From contig OX597818.1 in the NCBI GenBank assembly GCA_951406725.2, forward strand, positions 50,344,001-50,408,000: a DNA stretch of 64,000 nt, written 5' to 3'. The translations under genes and the position numbers were made by a program. This DNA is from Octopus vulgaris. Lineage: Eukaryota. The notes beneath the pieces are model-generated. The model was not told the origin of the DNA. It did no database searches and saw nothing but the letters and a program-made list of their open reading frames with translations. Below, one piece after another: positions 7,422-54,000 of the stretch. Within the stretch, counting starts at the first letter, position 1, and every line of letters starts with the position of its first letter.

Positions 7422-7644
7422 TTTCGCCTAAATGATATCCATAAAATTAAGAAGAGAATAAATATGATCGCTAATACCAAAAAAGTGGCCAAAGAAGCAA
7501 CCAGTGTTATAGTGGTTTCTGGTGTTAGAGTAGTGGTTGTTGTTGACTCCTTTTCCGAATGGGTATCTAAAAATGTTTGTATTTTATCCCTGTTCCAAGA
7601 TTTAAAATCTTCGGGCCAGATCTCACGGCATTGAGTGTCATTAA
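7422..7644 (-). CDS. Receptor gene A, stalk + transmembrane exon
   Basis: Acceptor ttttttttctcacag, donor AA|gtaagt, phase 1-2. FNDTQCREIWPEDFKSWNRDKIQTFLDTHSEKESTTTTTLTPETTITLVASLATFLVLAIIFILFLILWISFRR: Thr-rich stalk, ~23-aa hydrophobic helix, basic stop-transfer. Confidence 0.9.
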
Positions 7645-7876
7645 CTGTGAGAAAAAAAAAATTAAATAGAGGCAAATTAGTATTCTTTTATTCGATATTT
7701 GTTCCAGTCATCTGACTGTGGCCATGCTGGAGCACCGCCTTTAGTCGAACAAATCGACCCCAGGACTTATTCTTTGTAAGCTTAATACTTATCCTATCGG
7801 TCTCTTTTGCCGAACCGCTAAGTTACGGGCCTGTAAACACAGTAACATCGGTTGTCAAGTGATGATGGGGGGACAT

Positions 7877-7948
<72 letters not shown>

Positions 7949-7949
7949 A

Positions 7950-8350
7950 TATCAAAATAAGCAACAAAGATATCCAGAGGTAATGCAGTACGATCGTTTC
8001 AAGCAACTCCATTTAATTGAACAATGCAATCATTACATCAATTTAAATGCAGAGCAATCTTCAGCTGCATAAAGACATAGAATTAAATAAAATTAAACAG
8101 ATGGACACATTAATATAACTTTAACTAAAACCTCTAAGAAGGTATGGAGATAGACAAAGAACATACTGTCTTCACTTCAGCTTCTAAGCTGTTTTAATCT
8201 GTTGTAATTTAATTTAATTCTATGTCTTTATGCAGCTGAAGATTACTCAGCATTTAAATTGATGTAATGATTGCATTGTTCAATTAAATAGAGTTGCTTG
8301 AAACGATCGTACTGCATTACCTCTGGATATCCTTGCTGCTTATTTTGATT
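7950..8350. mobile_element. Fold-back Penelope-type terminal fragment with hammerhead motifs on both arms
   Basis: Arms ~7950-8100 and ~8200-8350; counterpart at ~39443-39830. Confidence 0.75.
8230..8317 (+). ncRNA. Hammerhead ribozyme-like motif (mirror copy on - strand at 7983-8070)
   Basis: atgcag-CTGAAGA-...-GAAA-cgatcg-TA-ctgcat: stem I, conserved core, palindromic minimal stem III. Confidence 0.75.
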
Positions 8351-8433
8351 TTAATAATCTTATTTTGAAATTGTATGAATAATACCGTACTAAATTCTGG
8401 TGCCTCAACTTAAATACCAAATTCATCTGAATC

Positions 8434-8529
<96 letters not shown>

Positions 8530-8736
8530 CACACACACACACTCACACACACATATATATGACAGGCTTCTTTCAAGTTCTGTCTACCAAATCCACTCAC
8601 AAGGCTTTGGTTGGCCCGAGGCTATAGTAGAAGACACTTGCCCAAGGTGCCACGCAGTGGAACTGAAACCGGAACCATATGGTTAGTAAGCAAGCTACTT
8701 ACCACACAGCCATGCCGGTTTATGGAATATATAGAA

Positions 8737-8935
8737 CAGTGGTTTTCAACCAGGGTTCCACCAGTACAGTTCAGGGGATCCGCAAGAAGCTACAAAACTG
8801 CTAAAGTCGGCAGTAATTTTTAATTCTCCTGTGCAGATATGTGTTCATAAGACTTAAATTATTGCACAGGGGTTCCTCGAGCCAGTGGAATGTTTCTTTG
8901 GGGTTCCGCTCCAGCAAAAAGTTTGAAAAGCACTG
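8737..8935. mobile_element. hAT (Charlie-like) MITE
   Basis: TIRs cagtggttttcaa / ttgaaaagcactg, 8-bp TSD atatagaa; counterpart at 40164-40365. Confidence 0.85.
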
Positions 8936-9940
8936 ATATAGAAGTATGCTTTATTAAAAAATATCAGAATAATGCACCCTGTCACCAATGTAGATATAGC
9001 TGTGGTAATATAATATATAGCAATAGCAACTTGTTAGATAGATACAGGTAGGTGAACACATAGAAAGGTGTGCTAGGAATCTTAATCCTAATTTCCTAAT
9101 TTTCCCCCTTTATCAATGTTCACAGAACACCTCAGTACAACAAAGAATGAATAAAGAGGCAACTTTCATCAACAATGTTTCTTCCACAACTTAATGTGAA
9201 CACATGACATAATACAGAACACTACTAACCTTTCAATTAATACCACTAACCCCCATACATCCCATACACCATTCACATTACAGATCTATATCTACCCTAA
9301 CTGCACCAAATCCAGAACTTACCTCCCTTACACATAATCGTTTTACTCAGGGACTAGTAGACCAGGCACCGTTCATTAATCGGTGTGCACTCAAAGTAAT
9401 GATTAGTAAATTCACGAAACCGGTATGCTTTTGAATCTCTTTAACAATTCACAATAATGACTTTTATTACTTTTATTTCTACCTGTTATAAGACTATAAT
9501 ATTATAGTCTTATCACATTAGTTTTATTCCTTACCTGTGATAAAACTATAATATTATTTCACTTTTATTCTTTCACTTTTAATTCTAATGTGATAACACT
9601 AAGACCATCGTATTTTACACATTCACTGTTCAGTTACGAGTTAATAATTGTCGCAGCAGTTGCAAGGTATTTACAGTTAAATGTTAACCCTTAAATTAAC
9701 ATTATATATATTAAGCAGCATATTAAATAACATAAGTAATTTATACCGGCAGTAAAAGGGATATTCTTATCCCTTAGATGGTTATTCCTACCACTAACTC
9801 TACTAACGTTGTATACATACATACATACATACATACATACATACATACATACATACATACATACATACATACATACATACATACCTACATACATACATAC
9901 ATATACATACATATACATACATACACACATACATACATAC

Positions 9941-9983
<43 letters not shown>

Positions 9984-10087
9984 CATATATAATATGAGGG
10001 AATATTATTCCAAACTTACAGGGAAAATTTCAATTTAGAAATACTAAATCAAATTTCACAAAATATAATATATATATACATACAAAT

Positions 10088-10155
<68 letters not shown>

Positions 10156-10166
10156 GTATTTATATA

Positions 10167-10208
<42 letters not shown>

Positions 10209-10211
<3 letters not shown>

Positions 10212-11779
10212 TTGCGACCAACATGTTGTCACCAGAAAAGTTTTTATCAAAGTTGTTTTATGTTCTATAATTGGTATTGTCTGAGATGTTGGTGTAATTT
10301 GAGAGGATAATACAAAAGTTATGGATGATTTAGTGATTTACTGCAAAACCCATGGCGGCCAAAATGATCAGAACGGTTAAAAAGATAACAAAATAATCAA
10401 ATATGACAGAGAATACTGGAATTATTTAATATTTAGTGTGAAGCCATTTAGCTTCAATCACACTTTGACATCTTTGACTGCATGAAGAAATTAAATTTCA
10501 ATTTCTTGCTAGGTAATCTTATTCCATTCTTCCTGAAGGGCATTCCATAATTGCTCGGTTGTTTTAGGATTTCTGGCTTTCGAATGTTCTCTTAGAATAT
10601 TCCACACATTTTCAATAGGATTGAGATCTGGGCTTTTGAGCAGGCCAATCCATAATAATAACCTTTTCAGCCTTGAGGAAGTTCATGACCACCTTAGCCT
10701 TGTGACACGGGGTATTGTCCTGCTTGAATATGGGTGGTCGCTTAGTTGAATTTCTCAGCACAGGCAAGACATGATCTTTTACAAGTTGTTTATAAACTCC
10801 TGCATTTACCTTTCCGTGTTATCGCACCAATGAGCCCACACCATCTCCAGATATCATCCCCCAAACCATGACACTTCATCCACCGAATTTAACACTAGTC
10901 TTAAGGCATTTAGGCGACAATTTTTCACTTACTTTTCAACGAACGTACCTTTTCCCATCTGAGTCAAATAACATAAACTTAGATTCATCACTGAAATGCA
11001 CCGTTTGCCATTTTTCTTGCGACCACAACACATGTTCGGTTGCAAAGGTAAGACGACACTTTTTATTTTTGGAGCTGATCAGTGGCTTCACTACAGGTGA
11101 TCTTGCTTGTAGGTTATGTTCAACTAAACGATGAGACACAGTTTTTCGAGATAACGTTTTCTTCAGTACAATGCTAATTTCCCGAGAAACAGCAGCAGCA
11201 GTTTTAAATCTGTCCTTTTTAACCAACTTTACCATAGCACGATCTTCTCTCTTGGTCGTTTTTCTTGGTCTACCTGTAGACTTTCTTGCTTCACACGAAC
11301 CACAATCATCAAAGACCTTAAGAATACCGTGAACAACACTTTTTGACTTGTTAACAATCTTTGCAATAGACCCAATACTTAAATTATCCTTCTTTCGAAG
11401 CTTAATAATATGCTGACGAATTGGTAACGGAGTAAGTGGCATTATATTAACAAAGTACACTGTAGATGTTCTTACTAATGTTTAGCAAACGAACCATCAC
11501 GTAAACAAATTCAAAACATTAGAGTTCGTCGGTTAAATATACTAAAACACGGAGTAAAAGCCACCGTTCTGATCATTTTGGCCGCCATGGGTTTTGCAGT
11601 AAATCACTAAATCATCCATAACTTTTGTATTATCCTCTCAAATTACACCAAAATCTCAGACAATAACAGTTAATATTTATTGTCCGTGAAAATTATAGAA
11701 TATAAAACAACTTTGATAAAAACTTATACCTACTTTTCTGGCGAAAACAATGCCGTTCTGAACATTTTGGCCGCAACTG
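10209..11779 (-). mobile_element. Tc1-family DNA transposon, full length, disrupted transposase
   Basis: HTH, GRPRKTT and FSDESKF motifs in ORF 10936-11460; the DDE remainder has frameshifts. Long TIRs beginning cagttgcg; TA target. Truncated in copy B (~42105-42767). Confidence 0.92.
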
Positions 11780-12085
11780 TATATATATGTATATCGACGG
11801 TATGAGAGGTATTGGTGTCAAGAAGACCCAAATGGTATCAGGTAATGCTAAGTAAGTGCTATGGATAGCAAAAACCCCCTTCGATCGAACAACACTGTTT
11901 ACAAGGCTCTATGCTTAGAATGACCAACATAACTACCATAGGAACCCACACACAAGGTACAGGAAACTTCTTCACGACTTAAATACAATATACTTATGTA
12001 TCTCACTTCTATTATCAGTCTATTATTTCCCGCTGTATTTCATATCTTCTCTATAATGATCAACACTCAAGCATTTTCTCGCACT

Positions 12086-12133
12086 GTCTCTGATGACGGG
12101 ATATATAGGATATCCCGGAAACAGCAGTAAGTC
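12086..12133 (+). ncRNA. Hammerhead ribozyme-like motif
   Basis: CTGATGA-cgggata(tatagga)tatcccg-GAAA-cagcag-TA. Confidence 0.7.
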
Positions 12134-12200
12134 CTTTTCTTCATAAATGTTCTGGAAACTATTTACAGCCTTTGATTTTTTATCTTATTCTGTCAATTTA

Positions 12201-12252
<52 letters not shown>

Positions 12253-12429
12253 GTGTGTATGTGTGTGTATGCATATATATATATATATACATGTGTCTAT
12301 ATATATGTATATATATATATGTGTGTATACACACACACACACACACATACACATTGCTTTTTTGTAGTCTCAGCTCAGAACTGCGGCCATGCAGGGGCAC
12401 CGCTGTTTTGTTACGCTGTTATTATTGAG

Positions 12430-13265
12430 AGCCTTCTCTAATATGTGGCATTTGGTGAATAAGGGAGTTTGATTTCACTATCCTCATTTGCACCGAGGTA
12501 GGTTCATCTGGGACACTTGACAGGAAGAGGTCCAGTTTTGATTTGAAAACACCTACATTTACTTAGTGTAGGTCCTTCAGGCTCTTTGGAGGAATATTAA
12601 AAAGCAGGAGTTGCAGTTCTACTCGGGAAAAACCAGGATTTTGAGGTAAGACTATCTTTGTAGGTCCGGAGGGCAGGTTGGTCGCCTTAGATGTGACACA
12701 CAAAAGTGGTAAGGCCTTTAGTTTGGTGGCTGTCTACGTTCCCTGTGGAGCTGGGCAGTCTGACTATTTTTGAAGCCTAGAGAATTTTCAAGGAACATCG
12801 CACACTTTAGTGTTGTTAGGTGACTTTAACACATTCTACGATGCACGCGTAGATCGTGTTGGCTCGAACCCGGATGGTTGGGGGGGAACCCTTGCCTTAG
12901 CGGTTTGCTAAGTCGTTTTCAGCTGGCAAACCGATTCAGACTGGATCACCCGGATGCTCCATTGTGGATGTGGGCAAATAACAATGGGTCGTCCAGATCT
13001 TATCTAGACAGGATTATTGTTAGAACTAATGGTAAAAATATAGTTAGTTGTCCACAATATCATATTGTCAACTACAGTAATCACAAATTTGTGACCTGTA
13101 GATTTGACCTAGATAGTATGGGCATTAACCAGTTCCATTATTAATAATAAATGGTGGAATGCCCTCAAAAGAGCCATTAAATTTGAGTCAATCAGATTTG
13201 GTACGGAATTAGCTAGTACTAGAAATAAAATAGAAAGGGTTTTAGTTAAGGCTCTAGTAGAGACA
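12430..13265 (+). mobile_element. Tx1/L1-clade LINE endonuclease fragment
   Basis: LVAVYVP...VLLGDFN...SYLDRI motifs with stops; counterpart at ~44110-44958. Confidence 0.8.
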
Positions 13266-13297
13266 ATAATATATTATATATATATGTAGAGATAATA

Positions 13298-13356
<59 letters not shown>

Positions 13357-13811
13357 TATATATATGTATATATATACACACACACACACATATATATATA
13401 ATATATTATATAATATATTATATTATTTATTGATATATAGGTGGATTATGTATTTGTAATACTAGATTGAAGTTAATTAGGTATTATATTATTTGATATT
13501 TTGTCTATTTTGTTATAGTTTGTAATATTAAATCCATAGATACTACACATGTATATTTATTATATGGTTAGCTTATGTGAGGAATTTGTCTATATTTGAA
13601 ACATTTCTTATTTTGATTACAATTTAATGACTTTTTATAGCTTTGTGTTTTTTATTTAATTTTAAAGTATTTAATTATTGAATTATCATTTTATTTTTCA
13701 ATTATGTATATTTAGAATTTTCATATACATATATATTTATATATATGTATATATATATGTATATATTAAAGTATATTTATTAATTAATTATTTTACTGTT
13801 CTATTATATTT

Positions 13812-13900
13812 TAACCTGATGAGCGACTATATTTATATGCAAGTGATTTATCTACTACTATAATCATTTCTTCAATATAGCAGCGAAACGCGTGTCGTTT
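13812..13900 (+). ncRNA. Hammerhead ribozyme-like motif in AT-rich Penelope-type tail
   Basis: aac-CTGATGA-gc...gc-GAAA-cgcgtg-TC-gtt; counterpart at ~45368-45455. Confidence 0.65.
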
Positions 13901-14179
13901 TTCTACCTATTATATACATTACATTATTCTTGTAATTTACTTAATCTTTACTTCTTAATTGTTATTTTAATTATTTTAAATTTTAACTTTTCAATTATAT
14001 ATAATTTTCTAGATGGTGTAATTTAATTATTCATTTTGAATTGATAAAAGGTGTTTTCTTTTCTAATATTTTATATATATTATATTGTGTGGAATTTGAT
14101 TTAGTATTTCTAAATTGAATTCTTTTTCCTTGTAAGTTTGGATTTTATTCTATCAAATAATAATTATATATATATATAC

Positions 14180-14247
<68 letters not shown>

Positions 14248-14383
14248 GGAGAGAGAAAGAGAGAGAGAGAGAATTATGTGTATATGTGTGTGTATGTGTG
14301 TGCGCATGCGTAACTTACGATTGAGTATTGGATTAATAAGTAGTTGTGTAATTCAATGTAATGTTACAGATTGCATAACTTAC

Positions 14384-14572
14384 ATGGAATATTGATGCCG
14401 CATCGAATCCAAGGTTTATCCTGGCATTGTCCAACATCAAGCACACAGGTTCTATTTAGCGCAATTGTACCAGCTCCACAATGCATATGATTACCGTGGT
14501 TATAATATTTCGTGCAAATGCATGGATCAATTTGGAAAGGAAGGCTCTTTTTCGAATTACAAATGGTAAAAT
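14384..14572 (-). CDS. Receptor gene A, Cys-rich ectodomain exon (chitin-binding type-2/peritrophin-A-like)
   Basis: Acceptor ttttattttttcag, donor T|gtaagt, 189 nt symmetric phase 1-1, open frame xFTICNSKKSLPFQIDPCICTKYYNHGNHMHCGAGTIALNRTCVLDVGQCQDKPWIRCGINIP with 7 Cys. DPxxCxKYY...CxxGT resembles CBM14 (resemblance only). Confidence 0.85.
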
Positions 14573-14659
14573 CTGAAAAAATAAAATTGTAGCTTTCTCT
14601 TGACTCTTACGTGGAAGAGTAATACTTTGTACTAGACAGTACTACATAACATACAATAG

Positions 14660-14870
14660 TCGTCCAAGAATTTGGACCTGGAGATCTCCATTTCCAGCGA
14701 CTTCGAGGGCCACCTCCCAGTGGTGTCGGACATCAACGAGGAGCCTTCGACTACAACAAGACGACCAAAGTGTAATTTTTCCAAGGTCCGGGATCTCCCG
14801 CCCCTAAGCCCTAGACCATCATCTAATCACCCTTACCCGTCTTGTTGCTTAACAACAACAATAACATACA
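14660..14870 (+). repeat. ~200-bp dispersed repeat with (AAC)n tail
   Basis: caagaatttggacctggagatctcc...cccttacccgtcttgttgcttaacaacaac; also at ~23675-23900, 46200-46400, 50498-50700 and 52353-52555. Confidence 0.8.
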
Positions 14871-15224
14871 ATAAAACACAAACAGATCGGTATAGTCCAC
14901 ACTATCTCAGGTTAATAGACGTGCTGTTTCCTCCATCTGTCTTTCTATCGCTCCTCCCTAACATGTTTGTTACAAACCTGGATTGCTGACTGGCTGTCAT
15001 GGCTAGTCTCATGTTATTCTTTCAATTAAATCCTCCCTGATGAACTCAAATCTGCTCTCCCGCTCGCCACCGAAGAGAAACAATCAAACCCTAATAACTA
15101 TTCGGCAATACCATCAGAAAACCTTTCATCTGCTGTGGCAAATAACAATAACTTATGGACTTTATTTACATCATTTTCATTATTTACATTTGACGGATAT
15201 TTGTCCTCATCTTGTTTGTTGTTA

Positions 15225-15268
15225 ACACAACGTTTCGGCTGATATACTCTCCAGCCTTCATCAGGTGT
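15225..15268 (-). ncRNA. Hammerhead ribozyme-like motif
   Basis: Minus strand acac-CTGATGA-aggctg(gagagtatat)cagcc-GAAA-cgtt-gtgt; counterpart at ~46744-46787. Confidence 0.7.
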
Positions 15269-15321
15269 CTTGGGGAAATTTCAAACCTAGCTTCTCATTC
15301 CTAAGGTATTTTTCGATATTA

Positions 15322-15377
<56 letters not shown>

Positions 15378-15410
15378 GTTATTATTATCATTATCATTGT
15401 TATTATTATT

Positions 15411-15883
15411 ATTTTTTTTTTCTTCTTTCAAATTTGCTTCCATTTCTTGCCGAGTGTCTTCCCGACTCCTAGGGCAAAGAAACTCATAGTATACATTGGT
15501 AGGCCATTAAACCAAACTCAGTAGTTCGTTCATTTTCTTTTTTTTTTTTTTTAAAGTTAAATTAAAATACATGAGCAGCAACAGTTCTCACATCGACAAT
15601 GCTCTTCTCAGTACGTGTGATGTACCAGTTAAGACAATCTTTTGCACTTCTTGCAGGGATGGTAAGCCAGGGATCATTCTCATATAATTTTCGGTTCCCT
15701 TCTTGATCATTCCTAGTGCTCCTACGATCACTGGTATTGTAACCGCCTTGAGATGCCACATTTTCTCAATTTCAATGAGTAGGTCTTTATATTTTCTGAG
15801 CTTGTCAAACTCTTTCGCTGAGATATTATGATCACAGGGGATGCTCATGTCGATCAATAAGCAAACTTTATTGTTTTGGTCTT

Positions 15884-15886
<3 letters not shown>
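15411..15886 (-). mobile_element. 5'-truncated R4/Dong-clade non-LTR element in (TAA)n, copy A only
   Basis: Restriction-like endonuclease C-terminus LLIDMSIP...KxxKY...IPVIVGALG; flanked by (ATT)n on both sides; absent from the array at 46850-47050. Confidence 0.8.
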
Positions 15887-15978
<92 letters not shown>

Positions 15979-15979
15979 G

Positions 15980-16968
15980 GGGTTAGTAGCCCGCGCTCTT
16001 AACCAATGGAGTGAAATTTTAGGGCTTATAAATCTAATATTTTCCTATCCTTAATACTGATTCCCCTATGCTATTCATATCTGCACTCGGTCTGCTTAGG
16101 AGGTCGTTGTGTCCTAGCATATGTGCTGCTTCTTTTAGTTTTCGTATTTTCCAGTGGTGTTCTCTGTCTATTATTTTAAATTCATCCCACAGGGAGAAGT
16201 GGTCTCCATTTTTCCATACATGATCAGCTTATACCCGATTGATCAATATCTCCTCGTGTCACAGCTTTGTGATATTCCCGTACACTTATTTTGAGGGGGC
16301 ACCATGTTTCGCCTTTGTATAACCTACCACAGCTGCATGGGATGGAGTATATGCAGTTTTTGGTCATATTCCCTTCTACTGGTGGTTTTACTCGAAAGAG
16401 ATATTTGTGAAGTGTTATATTACTCTTGAATACTGTCCTGGTGTCATATGGGCCGCATATCTTCTGTATATTTTCAGAGAGGCCTTTCACATAGGGCAGA
16501 CAGACTGTTGACAGTTTATTGGTTTCATCCTCTCTTTTCTTCATAATTGGAGTAGATAATATGTTTTTGGAGTAGTTGTTGCTTAATAGATTGTTACTGA
16601 GCTTGATCATTTCTTCGTGGTGAGTATCACGATCGCTGCCTATATTCTTTGATCGATGTTTTAGGCACTGATCAATCCCTCTCTTTACACTGTATGGATG
16701 GTGTGAATCGAAGTTAAGGTATCGCCCAGTAAAGGTCGGCTTGCGGTATACGGATGTCCTGAATCCATACTTGGTACGTGTTATTAGTACGTCCAGGAAT
16801 GGTAGCTGATTGTCTTTTTCCTTTTCCATTGTGAACTGTATGGATGGCTTTATTGAGTTCACATGATCCAACAGCACTTGGACATCTTCCTGGTGGGACC
16901 AGAGTATAAAGGTGTCATCAACATATCGCAGCCATATGGTTGGTTTTAGTGGTGTTGATCCTAAAGCT
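15980..16968 (-). mobile_element. Penelope-like element fragment (RT C-terminus + GIY-YIG)
   Basis: WLRYVDDTF, QFTME..LPFLDV, YRKPT, IYSIPCSCGRLYKGET; counterpart at ~47050-48045. Confidence 0.9.
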
Positions 16969-17422
16969 TTAGGAAAAAAACTTATTTTATAGAAAGAAAT
17001 ATAATTCTATTATTATGAGGTAGACCAAGAATCGAAAGGTTACTTCCATTGCCTTAGGGAAGGACACTTTGGAGATCCTGTTCAAAAAGTATTGAGTAAG
17101 AAGGGAGAAAGAGAGCGGGAGAGAAAGAGAGAGGGAGAGAAAGAGAGATTGAGAGAAAGAGAAAGTGAGAGCAGGAGGTGTAGGGAAAAAGGAATAAAGA
17201 AATGGAGGATAAAAATATTAAACGGGTGAAAGGATGAAGGACTGAACAAGGTGTTCGACTGCAAGAAGCAGTGGGACCTTTTTCTTTAGACTGTTGTTCC
17301 GGTCACATGAACAAAGGGTAACAGTCTCCAATATAGCACTTTGGTTCATTACGGGCATAAGACGGAGGCAGTTATGCGGATAAACAAATTAAATATAACA
17401 GCTTGGGTTTGATATACAATAC

Positions 17423-17455
<33 letters not shown>

Positions 17456-17479
17456 TACACACACATACGTACATATATA

Positions 17480-19545
17480 CAGTAGTGTAAAATCACTACT
17501 GCAGCGATCTCCCAGGAAGATGCAGAACACTTGGTGGGACGATCTTGCTTGTGATGTTCAGGCTGCTGCTGATGCAAATGACAGCAAGAGGCTTTACCAT
17601 CTTATGAAGCAAGTTTATGGGCCCAAGAGCCCCGCATCAGCTCCTTTGCTTTGCAAGGAGTCTTCTATTCTAGTTATTAAATCAACAGAAATCACAAGTC
17701 GCTCGATTGAACACTTCTCCGAATTCCTAAACCATGAGTTAGTTGTGGACGAAACAGTGAGAGATACTATGCAACAAAGACCTATCATTGGCTCCTTAAA
17801 TTCCACGCCCTCAAAAGTTGAGGTAAACTGAATGTTGGTAGGGTATCTGGATGTGATGGAATTTGTGCTGGGCTTTTTCAATTTGGTGGGGATTACAACA
17901 TACAGTCCCTTCATGAACTTATTAGTGTAGTCTAGAGGGATGGTGCAATGCCTAAGGACTGGAAGGGTGCAATTATTCTTCTTCTCTATAAAGGAAAGGG
18001 AGCCAGAATAATGTGTGGTAACTACAGAGCTATTGCTCTACTATCAGTTGCTGGCAAGGTTTTGGCAAATATTCTTCTTACTCGCCTGAATGAGTGTCTT
18101 GTAAATGGCCTATCTGAATCTCAATGTGGCTTCTGATCTGGTAGAGGGACAATGGATATGATCTTCACAGCAAGACAGATGTAGGAGAGGTGCCAAGAGT
18201 AGAATATGGATCCTGTCCAGGTATTCATTGATTTAACCAACATGTTTGATATTGTGAATAGGGCGTTGCTATGGAAAGTACTTGGCAAACTTGGATGTCT
18301 GGATTACTTTGTATCTATAACTAAATCATTTCATGATGAGACGGAGGCTTGTGTCAATGTTGGTGGTGGCACGGCGGGACCCATTCCTATAGAGAATAGT
18401 GTCAAGCAGGGTGACATTCTTGCCCCAACTCTCTTTTCTTTGTACTTTGCTGCTGCTTTTACTCATGCTTTTGCTAAGGTTTGCTCTCTGGGAATATATG
18501 TCAGGTATCGATCTTCTGGCCGCTTCTTTTATTTGCGCTGATTTGCTGCCAATTCAAAAGTTTTCCAGTCTCTTATTCGCGACCCCCTTTATGCAGATGA
18601 CTGACTTAGTCACTCATTCAGTGGATGACTTGCAAATACTTATGAATCGTATTTCTGCTTCTTGTAAAGTATTTGGACTCAGCATTAATCTAGACAAGCC
18701 TGCACCAGAAAATTCATATGTGGAAACAGCTATCTTGGTTGGGGGAACAATTCTGAAAGTGGTAGACAGGTCATCTACCTGGACAGCACACTCAGCCGTT
18801 CTTGATCCCTGGCTGATGAAATATCTTTCAGGCCGCAGAGAGCAACTGATTTCTTCCGGTCTCTTCAGTCTCGTGTCTGGTCCCAGCATGGCATCACAAA
18901 GCAAACAAAAATTGCTGTGTACCGTGCATGTGTACTGACATCGCTCCGTCATTTATGTAAAACATGGACCTTTTACAACTGTCATGTAAGGGTCCTTGAA
19001 CGCTTTCATCAGAGATGTCTCAGACACATTCTCAATGTTGGCTTGACCTTAAAACCTCCAGACACAGGTCCTGAGAACAGCTGATATCTTGAGTGCACAA
19101 ACATCGGTTACGTTGGACTTATTAGAATGAAGGATAGAAGGATTCCTAAGTAGATGCTATATGGGGAACTTGTGAATGGAAGGAGGCCGCGGCAGAAACC
19201 AAGGCTGCGATTTAAGGACTGCGTCCTCATTAAAGGTCTGCGATATGCAAGAGACTGACTGGGAGAGCAATGCCTGTCATCGCCACAGAGGGAGGAAGCA
19301 GGTTAAGGAGGGGATCGACACTTTGAGAGAGCACGTATCAATGAGAACTTGCGAGCACGAAAGCGCACGGCTGTATAGTGAATGGGGAAAGCTTGGTCTG
19401 CAATGTTTGCAGTCGTGTATGCTTGTCAAGAGCAGGGTTCATTAGCCACCAACGGAGCCACAAATGCAAAATATTAGTCCTAGAGCGTACAATGTTCCTG
19501 AAGTTCAGCAATGGTCTTCCTCGGTCACGAGTGGACAGACATTAT
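17480..19545 (+). mobile_element. Decayed RTE-clade LINE, copy A only
   Basis: YKGKG...CGNYRAIALLS, ESQCGF, FIDL, KQGDILAPTLF, YADD and a C-terminal CxxC..HxxxH; many frameshifts. Confidence 0.9.
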
Positions 19546-19689
19546 GCATGTATGTATGTGTGTGCGTTTATACAAACACACACGCACGAACGCACACGCA
19601 CGCACACGCACGCACACATACACGCACACACACACACATACACACACAGACATATGCCTCAAGTATTTAGGAAAAACCGTTGTGGACCA

Positions 19690-20812
19690 TAAGTGATCCA
19701 AACTTCAACTAAATACTCTCTCCCTTTTGAACCCAAATGTGGAAGCTTCGAATGTAACGCAGGCCGCGAAAAAGCATGCTGCTTTCGATACCTTATCCAC
19801 CAGCCACCGTGATTCTGGAGTTGCAGCCTTCATAAATTTTCCCAGGCCCTTTTCAGATCTTTGATCAGAAAAAGAGTTCCTAGCCCGAGCGGGAATGTAT
19901 ACTCTATGACCAAAAGCAAAATTACACTCTCGATAGTCAGATGTTGTCAAAAAATTCGATTTTGCCTAACTAACCCAGGGCGCCATCAGCAAGTGAAGAT
20001 GATAGGCAATGACTGTCATTCACTTGCTGAGGTCATTGTTGAAGATGCCTGGACAAACTCGATAAACTCGACAAACTCGACTTTTCTGACAATATCTGAC
20101 TATCGAGAGTGTACAACTGTCACGTGTATTACGTTCCAAATACCCCGCGATAGGTGAAAATCCGCGAAGTAGAAACAGTTCTGTACTCTATATTTTATTA
20201 TTATTTTTATAATTTGTATATATCTATTTTATCATAATTGCAAAACAACACCACACACTTGCCTTCCGGGTTTCGTTTTTCATACAGTATGTACGATTCT
20301 TTGTTTATTTATCTACGGTACACTACATATTTTCTTTTAATATATTTTAATTAATGTGTTATACAGTGCAGTACTGTACTGTATTTTCATTTATTAACTT
20401 GTAAATTTTTAGGTGATAAAACGCTTATTTTACCACAGAAATAATTAAAATCTAAAAGACTATAAATAGCTATCGCCCGCAGAGACCCGCTATATAATGA
20501 GGAGTCCGCGATATAAATTTACATATATGAGCCAGAAAATCCGCGAAATACTGACGGCCCGATAGGTGAACTGCAATATGGCGAGTGATTATTGTATTTT
20601 TGCTTTTGGTGATGGAACATAAATTCCCACTCGGGGCCAGGAGCTCATTTCTGATCGTAAACACGAAGGGTCTGGCAAAATTTATGAAGGCTGCAATTTC
20701 AGAATCACTGTGGTCGGCGGTTAAGGCATCGACAACATTGCACTATTTCAAACTCAGCGTTATATTCGAAGTTTCCACGTTGGGGTTCAAATGGAGGTTT
20801 GGACCCCTTATT
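19690..20812. mobile_element. Non-autonomous TIR element with nested pogo/Tigger-like MITE
   Basis: ~19690-19930 is inverted relative to ~20590-20812; the internal 20130-20590 segment carries 'gataggtgaa..ccgcga' subterminal motifs. Confidence 0.55.
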
Positions 20813-21395
20813 GTCCTTAAATAGTTGAGGCAGATATATATATATCAATATCTTCCTTTTTTTTACTTTCTCTTACTTGTTTCAGTCATTTTGACTGTGG
20901 CCATGCTGGAGCACCGCCTTTATTCGAGCAAATCGCCCCCAGGAGTTATTCTTTGTAAGCCTAGTACTTATTCTATCGGCCTCTTTTTCCGAACCGCTAA
21001 GTTACGGGAACCATAAACACACCAGCATCAGTTGTCAAGTGATGTTGGGGGGACAATAATAGACACATAACCATATACACACACACATATATACATACAT
21101 ATATACGACGGGCTTCTTTCAGTTTCCGTCTACCAAATCCACTCGGAAGGTTTTGGTCGGCTCGAGGCTATAGTAGAATACACTTGCCCAAGGTGCCGCG
21201 CAGTGGGACTGAACCCGGAACCATTTGGTTCGTAAGCAAGCTACTTACTACAATAGACAATGGACATGCTCTTCCCTGACTTATCATTTCTCTGTTGAGT
21301 TTGTTGTTAGTCATAAGTCCTATAATTCCAATCGCTACTTTACACAAACTGCTACACTCCGGAACACAACACTCGAGTTGTATCCTCTGGTGTAT

Positions 21396-21498
<103 letters not shown>

Positions 21499-21556
21499 CA
21501 CATTGTTGAAGTCATCAGAATTTATTAACTTCGAGATAATGTTATAAATAACATCA

Positions 21557-21596
<40 letters not shown>

Positions 21597-21642
21597 TGAG
21601 AGAGAGAGAGAGAGAGAAAGAGTGAGAGAGAGAGAGAGAGAA

Positions 21643-21688
<46 letters not shown>

Positions 21689-22099
21689 CTCTCCAAACAT
21701 ATTTGAAAATAATCGGGAATATATGACCAGCTAAGCACACCTACGAAAAGAAGCTTCTAAGTGGTTGTCCGATCTGCTAGAACTAGCAGCCAAACCTTTT
21801 GCAAATAACAGCGTACTGTCTTAAAAAAGAAGGGACGGCCGAGAGTGGAAAGCTTTGGATCAAAGACCAGCAGCATTTACTCACGTTTCTTTATGTTTTG
21901 AGTTCAAATCCGCCGAGGTGAACTTTAGTAGTTACCCTTGCGGGGCGAATAAAGTTTAGTACTAGTTAAACTATGAGGTCGATTTAATATTCATATAATT
22001 TTATACTTATACGATTTTGTGGTAAAGAAGGGTTGAGGCCCCTGTGACATAAGAAATTACAAAGAAGAAAAGCTGTGGGAGTGCAAATTGAAATGTTCT

Positions 22100-22500
22100 C
22101 GATTGACAGCTTAAAGGACTAAACATCAAAAACCAAAGAAGAACATGATGATAACAGTTGCTTCTAGAAAGCATCAGTTCGAGAATAGCTATTAGAATTA
22201 GAGGACTTAAGAGTAACAGAAAGTTCAACGAAGAAATGATGCGCCTAGGAAGAGTAGCGGGTGACACATTTTAAGGTCTTGACGGAAGGTATCAGACTAG
22301 AAATTTCATCAGAGCAATGACCCTGGAAATACTTGTGAGTCACAGCGAAAATATATTTTGACGATGAGCAAGACGCCAATCGAGTAGAAAGATGACTCAA
22401 CTCGTTTTCTAATTCGATCAAGGAAGTTAAGGTAATCAAAGCAGGCTCCAGTCGAAAGATGACTATGGTATTCAATGCAATTTCTTATAATGCATCACAG
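22100..22500 (-). mobile_element. LINE 3' fragment (CR1/Jockey-like), copy A only
   Basis: KYFQGHCSDEISSLIP motif typical of non-LTR RT C-termini. Confidence 0.55.
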
Positions 22501-23180
22501 GTGTGAATGGAGTTATGATAATAAGAGAAGACTGTATTTCATTTCAAAATTTTTAGTACTCAACATTTCAAAATCTTGCGTACTCCTTGAATGGTGAAAT
22601 TCATAGTTTCCCAATAGAGAGCTTCATCTCCGATTCAATTTTACTGAAAATCATTTAGATTTTCATGCAAGAACGATACTTTTACTTTACTTTTCATTGG
22701 ACTGCGGTCATGATGGAGCACTACCTTCAAGCGTTTTAGTCGAACAAAGAAATCCCGATACTCCTTTTTTTAAAGTCTGGTATTTATCTTATTTCGTTAC
22801 TATTGCCGAATCGCTAAGTTATTGAGATGTAAATGAACAGACGCCGGTTATCAAGAGGTGATGAGCGACGAACACAAAGACACACACACTACAGGCTTCC
22901 ATCCAGTTTCCATCAACCAACTTTTCCCACAAGGCATTGATCAGCAGGAGCTACAGTAGAAGATACTTGCTCAAGAAACTGTGTCGTGGGTCTGAACCCC
23001 GGAACCAAGTGGATGCGAAGCGAGCTTCTTCACCACTAAGCCATGCCCACGCCCGTCAAAAGGGAAAATCGCAACTAGATTCCAAAGGAATCAGCGTTCG
23101 TTCGCGACGGCAGAATTTCAATAACTTTCATGAACTCTCATACCTGCCAAAAAGGTTTCAAGAAACCAAAAATAGTTCAG

Positions 23181-23388
23181 TAACCCTTTCGATACCAACC
23201 CTGCTGAGACCGCCTCTGGCTCTGTAGTAGAAATGTTTTGTTTTCAAAAGTTCTGAGTCAAAATCTTCCACCAAACCTTAGTCACGATTTATGTTTCAAA
23301 CATTAGATTAATGATAGCTGGGTTATATTTGTAATTAATTGAAAGAAACACAGAGCATCTCAACAGAAATATGGTAACAAAAGGGTTC
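23181..23388. mobile_element. MITE with CCC...GGG termini (piggyBac-like)
   Basis: aaccctttcgatacc / ggtaacaaaagggtt; counterpart at ~50032-50240. Confidence 0.65.
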
Positions 23389-24575
23389 ACCGTATAGAGG
23401 GACCAGAAGTGAAACAATTGGGGCATCGATAGACTTTCATTATTCATATGGTGGGTGGAGTGCAGATTTTGGTAAATCTCAGAAATTATATCACTTCAAG
23501 GTACAACGAAGAAAGGCTCTGATTTGAAAGTCAGTGCTCAACTGTGTTCAAGGGAGTCAGACTTGTTATAGAAATCTCATTAACTCTGCTTTTGAGCTTT
23601 TTAAACTGCTTGATATAGCAGCAAAATATTTTCACCATTTATACTCAGCCATCCATTTAAGCAACCACGAGGACAGCCGTTCAAGAATTTGGACCTGGAT
23701 ATCTCCATTTCCAGGAACTTCGAAGATCACATCCCAGTGGTGTCGGGCGTCAACGAAGAGCCCTCGACTACAAGACGACCAAAGTTTTTTTTTCTAAGGT
23801 CTTGGGGAAGTTTTTTTTTCTAAGGTCTTGGGTTTCCCGCCCCTAAGCCCTAGACCATCAACTAATAACCCTTACCCGTCTTGTTGCTTAATAACAACAA
23901 CAACAGCAACAGCAGAAGAAGAAGAAAAATAAGAAGAAGAAGAAGAAGAAGAGGCGGAGGAGGAAAAAAGAATAATAATAATAATAAGAACAACAACAAC
24001 AACAACAAAAACAACAACAACAAAGACTCTTTCAAGGGAAGAATGAGGTGGGAAAGTGCTTGACAATGCTAACGAATTAAAGATCGATCAGAAATTGTAC
24101 GGAATCGAACAGGAAATTTTACGGAATCGAAGAGGAAAAAAAGCCCTTAAAAAATTAGAAAATTATATTTACCTTTTCCCATTTTCAGTTCAATAAGTAG
24201 AAAAAGAAAGAAAAAGAAAATTAAGAAATAGTTTCAAATTGATGGTTCCTTGGTTGAACGGGATTAAATAGAAATAAAATGAAAAGTTAGCCAAGATATT
24301 AACTGTAAGTGTTTTAAGCCTCTTCTGTGGTTGAACAACCTCCACAAACAGAAACAAACTAAACAATGAAAGAATGAGGAGAGAAATAATTAATACAGCA
24401 AAAATTCCCACCGGATTCTCTCTCTCTCTCTCTCTTTGTTTCCCTCTCTCACTGTTTCTCTCTATCTATCTGTCTCGCTCTCCCCCTCTCTCTGTTTTTT
24501 GTTTCTAACCACTCCCTTCTGATCATTTACTCGCGTGGTTCCTAGTTTTTTTCCTGACGTTCCCCTTCTATTTAC

Positions 24576-28918: not shown

Positions 28919-31636
<2,718 letters not shown>

Positions 31637-36156: not shown

Positions 36157-37322
36157 CTGTCTGACAACTCGATATCGTTATATGTAGCACTTATCGTCCA
36201 TTAGATGCTCCAAATCATACGGACCTATTCGAAGACTGTATTGGAAGAATAGAAATCTTAACTAATCTAGAACAACACAACAGTGTACTTCTTATGGGAG
36301 ACTTCAGCCTGTCCAACGTATGATGACCTGAGGAACTTTTCCTCTCAGAAATGACACAATGTACTCAAAATCAGGTGGAAATCCCTGCTCAGCCTCGCCA
36401 ACATAGAGCAAGTAATACTCTAACCAACCAGGCAGATAGTAGACTTGATCTCTGTTTCACAAACAATATGGATTTCGTCCATAACGTGAAAGTTACACCG
36501 ACGCTAGTCCCGGATGAAATGTAATAGTGCTGACCAAGTATAAACCAAAAAAATCCGAAGACGATCGGCTTATGGGGAGTACCTAAAAACTATCCAATTT
36601 CAATCTTTATAAAGCAGACTGGAAATCAATTGAGAAAGAGATAATCAAATAAGATTGGCCTCAATGTCTCGGTACTTCTGACAACATGAAATTCAAAGAA
36701 TTCGTGCTCATAATGCAAGATTGTCCCAGAGACAAAGGCCACTACACATAGGAGCAAGATTCTCAGAGAGGTAACAGTTCTTATGAGATGGCGTACAAAG
36801 AATTCATACTGCCCCATCAAAGAAGAGGGCGTAACACTGTCTATAGATGATGTCAACGTAAACTTAGCTGCTGGTCCAAAATAATTGTAATAGATTTCAT
36901 CGTCGGAATCTATCTTTAATCTCCCTTCTGCCAACATTTCAAATATAAGATTTCTTTCCTGAAGATCGGGGCTCGTCTCATCTGACGTTGGAATCAATTT
37001 CCTCCGTCTTCTGGGAAGAAATCTCACATTTTTAAAATCTAAAAACAAAAAGGAAGTGAGATAACTCCAATAATGGTATCACGTGATATATTATATTGAA
37101 AACCATCAAGACATTGTTATCATCTATCCATAGGTTTTATTTATCGAACAGTAACAGATTGTTACTTGTAACAGATTTTGATTAATTATTAAGTTATAAA
37201 ACGTATCGTTATCACCAGTAAATTTTATTTTTCAACGACGTGATTAAGAGTTATTTCTGTTCTCTGTTCACTTGGTCCAGTTCGTTAAACGCCAGTTTAT
37301 TATATCTTGGAGAAGACTCTTC

Positions 37323-37421
37323 TTATAGGTTTTCATATGTTTTCTCACCGATGTTTCTTGGGTTTGTTGTTGTTGAAGTGTTTTTATTCGCTATACTACT
37401 ATTGCAGAAGGAAGTAGTTGT
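37323..37421 (-). CDS. Receptor gene B, truncated terminal exon ending YENL*
   Basis: Acceptor tttatttcattacag; TTTSFCNSSIANKNTSTTTNPRNIGEKTYENL*, followed past the stop by EESSPRYNKL (relic second ITAM half). Confidence 0.8.
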   Translation of the reverse strand, partial: TTTSFCNSSIANKNTSTTTNPRNIGEKTYENL

Positions 37422-37961: not shown

Positions 37962-38055
37962 CGTATTTTCATAGATTTCTTCATTCGGATGATTATTCTC
38001 ATTTACATTTTGAACATTTGAACTGGCGAATTTATCATCTGGAGTTGAGTTTCGT
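37962..38055 (-). CDS. Receptor gene B, cytoplasmic exon 1
   Basis: 94 nt, phase 2-0, RNSTPDDKFASSNVQNVNENNHPNEEIYENT; both A tyrosines lost, new IYEN gained. Confidence 0.8.
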
Positions 38056-38910: not shown

Positions 38911-39157
38911 TTTCGTCTAAATGATATCCATAAAATTAAGAAGAGAATAAATATGATCGCTAATACCAAAAAAGTGGCCAAAGAAGCAACCAGTGTTAGA
39001 GCAGTGGTTTCTGGTGTTAGAGTAGTGGTTTCTGGTGTTAGAGTAGTGGTTGTTGTTGACTCCTTTTCCGAATGGGTATCTAAAAATGTTTGTATTTTAT
39101 CCCTGTTCCAAGATTTAAAATCTTCGGGCCAGATTTTACGGCATTGAGTGTAATTAA
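38911..39157 (-). CDS. Receptor gene B, stalk + transmembrane exon
   Basis: 247 nt = A exon + in-frame 24 nt (extra TLTPETT-type unit). Splice sites intact; TM sequence matches A. Confidence 0.85.
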
Positions 39158-41980: not shown

Positions 41981-42035
<55 letters not shown>

Positions 42036-45923: not shown

Positions 45924-46113
45924 ATGGAATATTGATGCCGCATCGAATCCAAGGTTTATCCTGGCATTGTCCAACATCAAGCACACAGGTTCTATTTAGC
46001 GCAACTGTACCAGCTCCACAATGCATATGATTACCGTGGTTATAATATTTCGTGCACTTGCATGGATCAATTTGGAAACGAAGGCTCTTTTTCGCATTAC
46101 AAATTGTTAAAAT
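45924..46113 (-). CDS. Receptor gene B, Cys-rich ectodomain exon (190 nt; +1 nt relative to A)
   Basis: Same splice sites as A. Reads ILTICNAKKSLRFQIDPCKCTKYYNHGNHMHCGAGTVALNRTC... only if entered in phase 0; in phase 1 it hits TAA after a few codons. Confidence 0.7.
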
Positions 46114-51000: not shown

Positions 51001-54000
51001 GCGGAGGAGGAAAAAGAATAATAATAATAATAAGAACAACAACAACAACAACAAAAACAACAACAACAACAAAGGTGGGAAAGTGCTTGACAATGCTAAC
51101 GAATTAAAGATCGATCAGAAATTTTACGGAATCGAACAGGTAAAAAGCCCTTAAAAAATTAGAAAATTATATTTACCGTTTCCCATTTTCAGTTCAATAA
51201 GTAGAAAAAGAAAGAAAAAGAAAATTAAGAAATAGTTTCAAATTGATGGTTCCTTGGTTGAACGGGATTAAATAGAAATAAAATGAAAAGTTAGCCAAGA
51301 TATTAACTGTAAGTGTTTTAAGCCTCTTCTGTGGTTGAACAACCTCCACAAACAGAAACAAACTAAACAATGAAAGAATGAGGAGAGAAATAATTAATAC
51401 AGCAAAAATTCCCACCGGATTCTCTCTCTCTCTCTCTCTTTGTTTCCCTCTCTCACTGTTTCTCTCTATCTATCTGTCTCGCTCTCCCCCTCTCTCTGTT
51501 TTTTGTTTCTAACCACTCCCTTCTGATCATTTACTCACGAGTTTCCTAGTATTTTTCCTGACATTCCCCTCTATTTACACTTCCTATGAAACGAGCAAAT
51601 GACAATATAACAGAACCAGACGATAAACAAAACACTTCGCTTAACATCCAGATAGTACAGTTTATAAGAGGCGCTCATTCAGTCATGCGCAAACATGCAT
51701 TTCATACGCAATAACAAAACTGAACGCCATGAATCACCTTGGACGACCATTACACAATACTCCTTCCATAATCCACGACAAACATCACTAATTCCACCTT
51801 TCATTTCCCCCTCCTCCATCATCATAATCATCATCATCGATAACAGCAGCATCAGTGGAGGCGCAATGGCCCCGTGGTTAGGGCAGCGGACTCGCGGTCG
51901 TAAGAACGCGGTTTCGATTCCCAGACCGGGCATTGTGAGTGTTTATTGAGCAAAAAACACCTAAGCTCCACGAGGCTCCGGCGGGGAGGGTGGTGAACCT
52001 CACTGTACTCTTTCACCACAACTTTCTCTCACTTTTTCTTCCTACTTCTGCCACAAAGCAGAGGAACCATGGTGTAACCCACTATGGTGTGGTAAACTTT
52101 CAGACCCTAGTCTGATGGTTCAGCTCTCCACCCGTTAAAAGCCACCTTTTAGGGAATGAGGATAACAACGTAGCTTTCGCGCCCGTGCAACCGCCAGTCT
52201 ATCACGTGTGGTGGGTGGATCTTCAAGTTGCCACACGCATTCTTAGTAGCTTAGAGTAGGCTCGAATTAGAGATTATTCTTTGTGGCTAATGGCGTGAGT
52301 CCTGATTGGAAGAAGACAGCAGCATCACCACCATAATCACTAGCAGCACTAGCCGTTCAAGAATTTGGACCTGGAGATCTCCGTTTCCAGCGACTTCGAG
52401 GGCCACCTCCCAGTGGTATCAGGCGTCAACGAAGAGCCCTCGACTACGACCAAAGTTTTTTTTTTCCAAGGTCTGGGGTCTCCCGCCCCTAAACCCTAGA
52501 CCATCACCTTAATCACCCTTACCCGTCTTGTTGCTTAACAACAACAACAACAACCAACAGCACTAGCGCCACCACCGCCACCGTCGTCCAACTTTTCTAC
52601 CATCGTCAAAAGAAACAAAATCAGCAGCAGCAGCCCACCAACCCCCTCCGCCACCGCCACCACTACCACCACAACCAGCAACAACAACAATACCATGCCT
52701 GTCTCTCCTAAACATGGAAAATAATTTTATAAAATCCAATTTGTAGTTTTTGCATTCATTCAATATAGCTTACGCAAGCCTTGCGTGCTTTGCATTCAGA
52801 CAGGAAACGCTTTCAAAGCGTTATTTAGGGGGTTCACTCGACAGCGCAGCCAAATGGTATCAAGTCGGCCTATATGCAGTGACCCCTAATAGAGGGTAAG
52901 ATGGATTGTATCGAGACGACAGTTTAGAATTGTCGCATCATAATCCCGTTCATGCTCAAGCCACGTTCGGAAAGAACCTCATAGCCACAAAATATTACCA
53001 CAGCTACTAATATTATCAACGTAGACTTCGCTGATGCTCCATTCTGTTTAAGCAATTCAGGCAAACCATTGCATAAATGTGGTGAGAAACCGAGGTGTAT
53101 AAAGAAACACTTGTATTCGCAAATGTTACGGTAAGAATTTTAAAGCGGCGAGTTGGTTGAATAGTTAGCACACCGGGCAAAACACTCAGCGGTATTTCGT
53201 CTGCCGTTACGTTCTGAGTTCAAATTCCGCCGAGGTCGACTTTGCCTTTCATCTTTTCGGGGTCGATTAAATAAGTACCAGTTACGCACTGGGGTCAATA
53301 TAATCGACTTAATCCGTTTGTCTGTCCTTGTTTGTCCTCTCTGTGTTTAGCCCCTTGTGGGTAGTAAAGAAATAGGTATTTCGTCTGCCTTAATGATTTG
53401 AGTTCAAATTCTGCCCATGTCGACTTTACCTTTCACCCTCCAGAGGTCGACCAAGCAAGTACCAGCTGAATACTACGGTCCAATGCGATCGACTTAGCCC
53501 CCACAACCTGCTGGTCTTGTGCTAAAATTTGAAGGAGGCAGCGAGCTAGTAGAATCGTTACTGCACCGAACAAATTACTACCGGCATTTTGTCCATCTTT
53601 ACGTTCTGGGTTCCAATTCCACCGAGGTCGGCTAAGCCTTTGATCCTTTTGGTGTCGATAAAATAGGTACCAGTTAAATACTGAGGTTGATGTAATCGAA
53701 TTAAGTTCCTGCTCCACCCGTTCGAAATTAATGGCCCCGTCCCAAAATTTGAAAACAATATTAGGATAAGAATTGATAACCTGCCATTCTTTAAACAAAG
53801 CGTTGATAAGGTGGACTATTACAGCAACAAAGCCTTAGCTGACTGCAGCTTTGCGGAGAAAAATTCTTACGCACCCAACTTAAATCAACTACCGCCCAGG
53901 AAGGGACTCACAAAAATGTTCTGCTTCGCATCCGCTTTTTTCCCTAAGCGAGAATTCCCGAAGGATGCAGACCACAAGAAAATGATAAAAGTTCTGACAG

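What the first reader, a model, noticed from the sequence alone, without database searches (positions are those of the whole stretch)
37290..37340. Stop codon placed inside the ITAM of copy B (YENL*EESSPRYNKL)
Seen: TAA stands where A has GAA, immediately after the first YxxL. The second half-site YNKL is still in frame behind it, while sequence further on has indels. Inference: B is a single-YxxL (hemITAM-like) or decoy version. More speculatively, readthrough or double A-to-I editing (UAA to UGG; coleoids recode heavily) would restore a full ITAM.
Basis: partly seen in the sequence, partly recalled or inferred. Interest (0 to 1): 0.7.

Follow-up and report, generated by a model that had tools for sequence, protein, structure and literature searches.

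The report
Octopus receptor copy drops its ITAM
The stop codon is real and stays unedited in spliced RNA contigs; it ends one copy of a duplicated octopus membrane protein before the second half of its ITAM-like motif, likely as part of an older switch of that copy's tail to predicted Grb2-type sites rather than an RNA-editing switch.

Summary
TAA at 37325-37323 (minus strand) is confirmed. It is the annotated end of copy B (CAI9722889.1) in a four-gene Octopus vulgaris cluster of cysteine-rich single-pass membrane proteins. It is not an assembly error. None of 6 organism-A runs shows a change at the codon, and spliced contigs from two studies match the window exactly. The same tool does report GAA in another organism and in a paralog.

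Restoring the ITAM by editing or readthrough is not supported. No A>G is seen and no RNA duplex is predicted. The 'preserved' YNKL is broken by a one-base deletion in 4 of 8 runs, and O. sinensis B loses it by that frameshift without any stop. B also fails the hemITAM consensus.

All 4 B-specific tail substitutions, shared with O. sinensis, lie in tyrosine motifs (post hoc P 0.001-0.02). B loses YEEI and the ITAM, and every tyrosine left sits in YxN. The likely reading is a rewired, non-ITAM paralog. The main rival is a decaying duplicate, because B also has an unverified +1 frameshift in exon 2.

The parts
37323..37325 (-). TAA; true stop of copy B (Glu in every other annotated family protein that extends past this position)
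   Evidence: unchanged in bridging contigs of X10, X13 and X7
37326..37337 (-). C-terminal YENL of B: the only YxxL left, also a YxN; Lys at Y-2
37293..37304 (-). Remnant YNKL half-site, now 3' UTR; one-base deletion at 37296 in other haplotypes
   Evidence: table 4
37251..37322 (-). Would-be readthrough frame, 23 codons plus TAA; lacks the YHxV motif of the other paralogs
37323..37421 (-). B exon 5, coding part
   Evidence: splice joint 37421/37962 in X2 and X6; loose ends onto exon 4 in X10 and X13
37962..38055 (-). B exon 4: YEEI changed to NEEI; new YENT at 37973-37962
38911..39157 (-). B exon 3: Thr/Pro stalk, transmembrane helix, RRK
   Evidence: joint 38055/38911
45924..46113 (-). B exon 2, Cys-rich ectodomain; 190 nt against 189 in A (extra A near 46108 gives MGNDFNNL* from exon 1); annotated start Met at 46026. 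Not checked in reads.
51177..51186 (-). B exon 1 coding part (Met-Gly-Asn), predicted
   Evidence: same N-terminus as O. sinensis X2-X4
3500..3544 (-). Intact ITAM-like motif of copy A, YEVL-x7-YNKL; GAA at 3532-3530
3422..24182 (-). Copy A gene, exons 24182-24173, 14572-14384, 7644-7422, 5246-5153, 3625-3422; translates to CAI9722888.1 (239 aa)

Best explanation
The TAA is a genomic G-to-T change that is kept in spliced transcripts and ends copy B at YENL, so B's tail has no ITAM and likely works as a rewired, Grb2-type (YxN) tail beside ITAM-bearing sister copies. Shown: the stop; its presence in spliced contigs; loss of YEEI; gain of YENT; loss of the distal half-site in both O. vulgaris (stop) and O. 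sinensis (frameshift). Inferred: N-out/C-in topology without a signal peptide; phosphorylation of the tyrosines; binding of a Syk/Shark-type kinase to the A/C/D tails and of a Grb2/Drk-type adaptor to B; that B protein is made. In this reading B, with an ectodomain about 97% like A's at DNA level, would meet the same ligand but pass a different or weaker signal. The YNKL behind the stop is leftover 3' UTR.
For: Reads: no variant row at 37323-37325 in 6 of 6 organism-A runs. X10 and X13 contigs span 37200/37204-37422 with 0 differences and continue into exon 4. Positive control: A>C at 37325 is reported in X5 (3 of 3 contigs) and in the X7 paralog contig. The distal half-site is broken by the 37296 deletion in X1, X2, X6 and X7 (4 of 8 runs). 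The O. sinensis X3/X4 tail ends NWRLTNWKL, which is B's shifted frame. All 4 substitutions specific to B-type tails in 66 residues fall in tyrosine windows (P 0.001-0.004 for three windows; 3 of 4, P 0.017, if only ancestral tyrosines define the window). Other lineages show 1 of 5, 0 of 1, 1 of 9 and 1 of 6. Tyrosines in YxN: 2 of 2 in O. vulgaris B, 3 of 3 in O. sinensis B, 2 of 40 (one site) in the nine other tails. YxN is the Grb2 core (PMC4263166, passages).
Against: The window's B has +1 nt in exon 2, which stops the frame from exon 1 after 8 codons. If that is real and fixed, B is N-truncated or null; it was not checked in reads. The motif test is post hoc and rests on two sister species. 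One X5 contig has YENL with Glu at Y-2 and GAA, so YENL is not strictly B-specific. The stop removes the third YxN that O. sinensis has. O. bimaculoides X1 has also lost a half-site (YEDQ), so the motif may simply be labile. There are no protein, phosphorylation or binding data.
Confidence: 0.5

Rival explanations
1. B is a transcribed but decaying duplicate; the stop is one of several neutral lesions and the YxN pattern is coincidence.
For: +1 in exon 2. B lost the juxtamembrane YEEI/V tyrosine, which is kept even in distant paralogs. Patchwork haplotypes and a segregating deletion behind the stop. Redundant ITAM copies lie next door.
Against: The O. sinensis B-type model is open from Met1. 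B is correctly spliced in 4 of 4 RNA-type runs. A new tyrosine was gained in a YxN context and the changes cluster in motifs. Exons 3-5 are open up to the stop.
Confidence: 0.33
2. B is a true hemITAM receptor: two B chains present their terminal pYENL to one Syk tandem SH2, as CLEC-2 does.
For: One YxxL remains. Oyster CgCLec-HTM and CgCLec-TM1 signal through hemITAM and Syk (review PMC13027682, passages). An anomalous hemITAM (NKp80, ERYxxL) exists (PMC3819593).
Against: GEKTYENL matches neither consensus. B changed Glu to Lys at Y-2, away from the acidic patch. The motif is at the extreme C-terminus of a protein that is not a C-type lectin.
Confidence: 0.1
3. Double A-to-I editing (UAA to UGG) or readthrough restores a full ITAM in some tissue.
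For: The window haplotype keeps YNKL in frame at spacing 7. Coleoids recode heavily, and UAG-to-UGG stop-loss edits are allowed for in their editome pipeline (PMC8382921, passages). Contigs drop rare variants, and the tissues laid are unknown.
Against: No T>C at 37324 or 37323 in X2, X6 (5% threshold) or X10, X13 (1% threshold). The best complementary match in the pre-mRNA is 14 of 15 nt at E 0.22. The best duplex is -23.1 kcal/mol against -22.2 to -30.0 for 8 control sites. Two edits are needed; one edit gives another stop. Engineered editing of a UAA stop reached about 3% in mdx mice (PMC12940819, passage). The context UAA-GAAG is not the UGA-CUAG readthrough motif (PMC5868278). The target motif is frameshifted in 4 of 8 runs.
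Confidence: 0.04
4. The TAA is an assembly error or a private allele.
For: One of the DNA runs may be the assembly's own sample (tool warning).
Against: It is present in runs of 5 organism-A studies, including haplotypes that differ from the window at 4-9 nearby sites, and in the B-type contig of organism C.
Confidence: 0.01

Closest known systems
Botryllus schlosseri fester co-receptors (FcoR3, FcoR4)
   Same: Clustered invertebrate single-pass receptors whose alleles and splice forms gain or lose tyrosine motifs, including by premature stops (PMC12582321, PMC11507803; passages).
   Different: FcoR are type I Ig-superfamily proteins that swap ITIM and hemITAM, and YxNM was reported absent. 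Here the ectodomain is small, Cys-rich and has no signal peptide, the change is ITAM to YxN, and no ITIM is present.
Drosophila Draper-I / Draper-II
   Same: Invertebrate ITAM read by Src42A and Shark, with an alternative tail of different output (PMC8092387, passages).
   Different: Draper uses alternative splicing and an ITIM that binds Corkscrew, and has an EMI/NIM ectodomain. Here the variants are tandem genes and B has no ITIM. The Atlas likeness to molluscan MEGF10-like clusters was 0.80, a lead only.
hemITAM lectins (CLEC-2, Dectin-1, NKp80; oyster CgCLec-HTM, CgCLec-TM1)
   Same: A single YxxL in the tail.
   Different: No triacidic or DG residues before the Tyr, and no C-type lectin domain; the motif is C-terminal.
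YxN Grb2-docking tails (mIgG ITT; LAT/NTAL-type adaptors, the latter recalled)
   Same: YxN cores. LAT-type adaptors are also type III membrane proteins with several YxN sites (recalled).
   Different: No homology shown; B has a Cys-rich ectodomain; binding is untested.
Coleoid stop-loss A-to-I editing (UAG to UGG)
   Same: A stop codon in an octopus mRNA with open frame behind it.
   Different: UAA needs two edits; none seen; not restorative, since the ancestral residue is Glu.

Membership tests
ITAM (copies A, C, D) | D/E-xx-YxxL/I-x6-8-YxxL/I (consensus recalled) | tested here: met
   8 of 9 non-B proteins; 79 of 100,000 shuffles
ITAM (copies A, C, D) | Cytoplasmic side of a membrane protein | tested here: inconclusive
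   One hydrophobic helix followed by RRKR; topology inferred from the positive-inside rule
ITAM (copies A, C, D) | Dual phosphorylation recruits a Syk/ZAP70/Shark tandem SH2 | not testable with these tools
   Needs phosphopeptide binding
ITAM (copy B) | Two YxxL/I in the translated tail | tested here: not met
   Stop after YENL, kept in spliced contigs
hemITAM (copy B) | Single YxxL | tested here: met
hemITAM (copy B) | [DE][DE][DE]xYxxL or DGYxxL | tested here: not met
   GEKTYENL; definitions; scan
hemITAM (copy B) | Dimer cross-bridged by Syk | not tested
   No complex prediction or binding assay run
ITIM/ITSM inhibitory receptor (copy B) | [ILVS]xYxx[ILV] or TxYxx[ILV] | tested here: not met
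   0 of 12 tails
Grb2-docking tail (copy B) | YxN core | tested here: met
   YENT and YENL; O. sinensis also YDNW
Grb2-docking tail (copy B) | Phosphorylation and Grb2/Drk SH2 binding | not testable with these tools
   Needs experiment
Edited stop codon | A>G in RNA but not DNA at the stop | tested here: not met
   Contig level only, 4 RNA-type runs; rare editing not excluded
Edited stop codon | Stable RNA duplex over the edited adenosines | tested here: not met
Chitin-binding type 2 domain (CBM_14) for the ectodomain | Pfam PF01607 match or fold | tested here: inconclusive
   Only distant paralog P0015 hits, E 0.071, below cut-off; both models have mean pLDDT 40-42

The most novel reading that the evidence does not exclude
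The cluster is an octopod paired-receptor system for immune or self/non-self recognition. A and B keep near-identical ectodomains while their tails diverge into a Syk/Shark ITAM output (A, C, D) and a Grb2-only output (B). The second ITAM half-site was removed from B twice, by stop and by frameshift, and the stop is carried between paralog backgrounds by gene conversion, so individuals differ in their ratio of ITAM to non-ITAM receptors.
Probability: 0.2. Interest if true: 0.65.

Novelty: new member of a known kind. Interest (0 to 1): 0.36.

Why it matters
The stop codon itself is an ordinary nonsense change. What it marks is a gene family with no description found in the searches made: octopus membrane proteins with ITAM-like tails, one copy of which has replaced that motif set with YxN sites. 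If B is functional, it is a natural paired-receptor experiment in cephalopods, with nearly the same ectodomain and different SH2 output. It would give a direct way to test ITAM/Syk signalling in this group. It is not evidence for an RNA-editing switch.

Tried and rejected
No whole genome was held, so C and D were seen only as proteins. Pfam gave no significant family for 4 exon translations or 7 proteins. The Atlas gave only hits of 0.82 or less. The profile search gave 7 hits: 3 family members, an O. bimaculoides fragment, 2 distant octopod paralogs, and a fish protein that probably matches by helix and tail composition. No squid or non-octopod member turned up, which is weak evidence given these searches. 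Two AlphaFold models were too poor for a fold search. No run was on record as RNA; RNA status is inferred from splice joints. Contig depth was not used to rank expression. One search started B exon 2 one base late and printed a misleading open frame; one search corrected it, and its exon 2 figures are the ones used. A search for further exons at 7900-9800 found only closed frames. Earlier scan notes: nothing by place, sequence or words. Literature: 0 papers hold any of four LOC ids. Searches on octopus+ITAM+receptor (9 papers, 8 listed) and cephalopod+hemocyte+Syk (15 papers, 12 listed) listed no title on this family. Supplementary tables and subscription journals were not searched and could hold expression or editing data for these genes.

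Full report
Observation. The minus strand at 37337-37293 reads YENL*EESSPRYNKL, with TAA at 37325-37323. The window holds a tandem duplication about 28-34 kb apart, and the matching codon of copy A is GAA at 3532-3530.

The gene. Both copies have five coding exons on the minus strand. A translates to CAI9722888.1 (239 aa). B, from its annotated start, translates to CAI9722889.1 (180 aa, ending KTYENL). Both are O. vulgaris records, and CAI9722890.1 and CAI9722891.1 (C and D) follow with consecutive accessions, so a four-gene cluster is inferred. Relatives are O. sinensis LOC115211618 (isoforms X1/X2 with A-type and X3/X4 with B-type tails), LOC115211668, LOC115211728 and O. bimaculoides LOC106874494. 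More distant octopod paralogs were found. The proteins have a Cys-rich N-terminal part without a signal peptide, a Thr/Pro stalk, one hydrophobic helix followed by RRKR, and a tail of 66 to 101 residues. N-out topology is inferred. The ectodomain has no assignable family. Eight of 9 non-B proteins carry D/ExxYxxL-x7-YxxL (consensus recalled), which 79 of 100,000 shuffles of the A tail give. Signalling is untested.

Is the stop real? Eight of the 24 listed runs were laid, all as contigs. In one search (likeness 92, 5% threshold) X1, X2, X4 and X6 cover the codon and show no change at 37323-37325. X2 and X6 carry the joints 37421/37962 and 38055/38911 with intron-type ends, so they are spliced RNA. 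The two listed pieces over the stop in that call have 29 letters on the short side, just under the tool's bridging rule. In one search (likeness 84, 1% threshold) X10 and X13, from two further studies, each give one contig over 37200/37204-37422 with 0 differences that continues into exon 4. The same call is the positive control. It reports A>C at 37325 (GAA) in 3 of 3 contigs of X5 (organism B) and in the YEVL paralog contig of X7 (organism C), while the B-type contig of X7 keeps TAA. So the stop is genomic, is seen in 5 organism-A studies and in a second organism label, and lies on several haplotypes. One DNA run may be the assembly's own sample.

Editing and readthrough. No T>C row appears at 37324 or 37323 in the 4 RNA-type runs. 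Contigs drop rare variants and the tissues are unknown, so low-level editing is not excluded. The best complementary match to the stop region in B's pre-mRNA is 14 of 15 nt (E 0.22). The best duplex, -23.1 kcal/mol, lies within the range of 8 control sites (-22.2 to -30.0). Two edits are needed, and the product would be Trp rather than Glu, so it is not restorative in the sense used in PMC8382921 (passages), whose pipeline allows for UAG-to-UGG stop loss. Engineered editing of a UAA stop reached about 3% in mdx mice (PMC12940819, passage). The context is not the UGA-CUAG readthrough motif (PMC5868278, passages); that UAA plus a purine terminates well is recalled. Most telling, the half-site to be restored is not maintained. 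A one-base deletion at 37296 breaks YNKL in X1 (13.2 of 13.2 depth), X2 (544.6 of 2077.9), X6 (153.7 of 3006.3) and X7 (8.02 of 24.1, on the contig that keeps the TAA). X4, X5, X10 and X13 do not show it. The O. sinensis B-type tail has Glu at the stop position but ends YDNWRLTNWKL, which is B's shifted frame. Both species' annotated B tails thus lack the second YxxL, by different routes. Whether the deletion came first or recurred cannot be told here.

What changed in B's tail. Against the nine other proteins, B-type tails have 4 specific substitutions in 66 residues: YEEI to NEEI, Asp to Tyr creating YENT, Glu to Lys at Y-2, and Asn at Y+2 giving YENL. All 4 lie in tyrosine windows (P 0.001-0.004 for three window choices; 3 of 4, P 0.017, with ancestral tyrosines only). 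A, C/D and the two O. bimaculoides tails show 1 of 5, 0 of 1, 1 of 9 and 1 of 6. Every tyrosine left in B-type tails is YxN (2 of 2; 3 of 3), against 2 of 40 elsewhere. YxN is the Grb2-binding core (PMC4263166, passages); that pYEEI is the Src SH2 optimum is recalled. The test is post hoc and rests on two sister species. One X5 contig has YENL with Glu at Y-2 and GAA, and O. bimaculoides X1 has lost a half-site too (YEDQ). GEKTYENL matches neither hemITAM consensus (PMC11507803, PMC3819593; passages), and no tail has an ITIM or ITSM.

Evidence for decay. B exon 2 is 190 nt against 189 in A. Spliced to exon 1 it gives MGNDFNNL*, and the next ATG lies 70 nt further on, which is where the annotation starts. 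That product would lack 32 residues, including 3 cysteines. The O. sinensis model is open there. The insertion was not checked in reads, which leaves the choice between a rewired paralog and a decaying duplicate open.

History. A and B differ by 0.5-3% in exon 1 with its UTR, exon 2, an upstream intron block, exon 3 and the distal 3' UTR. They differ by 10% in exon 4, about 17% in exon 5, and 15-17% in two flanking intron blocks. An old tail duplication with later homogenisation or re-duplication of the rest is inferred. A YEAL-type contig in X2, X4 and X6 shows no change at 37325, although annotated C has Glu there. This suggests the stop also sits on a C-like background; it rests on a missing table row and the control.

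Verdict. The stop is real and probably final. Single YxxL: yes. hemITAM: no by sequence. Editing or readthrough switch: unlikely (0.04). Rewired YxN tail 0.5, decaying duplicate 0.33. The closest known systems are Botryllus FcoR and the Draper isoforms (PMC12582321, PMC8092387; passages), with oyster hemITAM lectins as the molluscan precedent for Syk signalling (PMC13027682, passages; PMC10253181 passages note Syk and SHARK in invertebrates). No description of this family was found; supplements were not searched. Interest 0.36.

Noticed in passing
window 46113-46100 (minus): Extra A in B exon 2 shifts the frame from exon 1 (MGNDFNNL*); real allele or assembly error is unknown.
   Followed up: partly
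window 38060, runs X2 and X6: Loose ends show exon 2 joined directly to exon 4, skipping the transmembrane exon; the frame would shift.
   Followed up: no
window 37297-37420, runs X2, X4, X6: YEAL-type (C-like) contig shows no change at the stop position, whereas annotated C has Glu; possible gene conversion of the stop.
   Followed up: partly
window 37302-37375, run X5: Contig with YENL, Glu at Y-2 and GAA, adjoining C/D-type downstream sequence: a full-ITAM YENL form may exist in organism B.
   Followed up: no
P0006 (O. bimaculoides X1): First half-site is YEDQ (YxxQ, a STAT3-type motif by recall): another loss of an ITAM half-site in the family.
   Followed up: no
window 39040-39075 (minus); P0002, P0004, P0012: Copy number of a T-L-T-P-E-T-T stalk repeat varies between copies and isoforms; B has 24 nt more than A.
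   Followed up: no
P0015, P0017, P0018: Distant octopod paralogs keep the Cys pattern and the juxtamembrane YEEI/V; P0015 has a sub-threshold chitin-binding CBM_14 hit (E 0.071).
   Followed up: partly
window 29432-31328 (+), 16224-17006 and 47374-48081 (-), 10936-11481 and 42035-42520 (-): Transposon remnants by eye: reverse transcriptase with GIY-YIG-like (Penelope-type) frames and Tc1/mariner-like transposase fragments, some duplicated with the gene.
   Followed up: no
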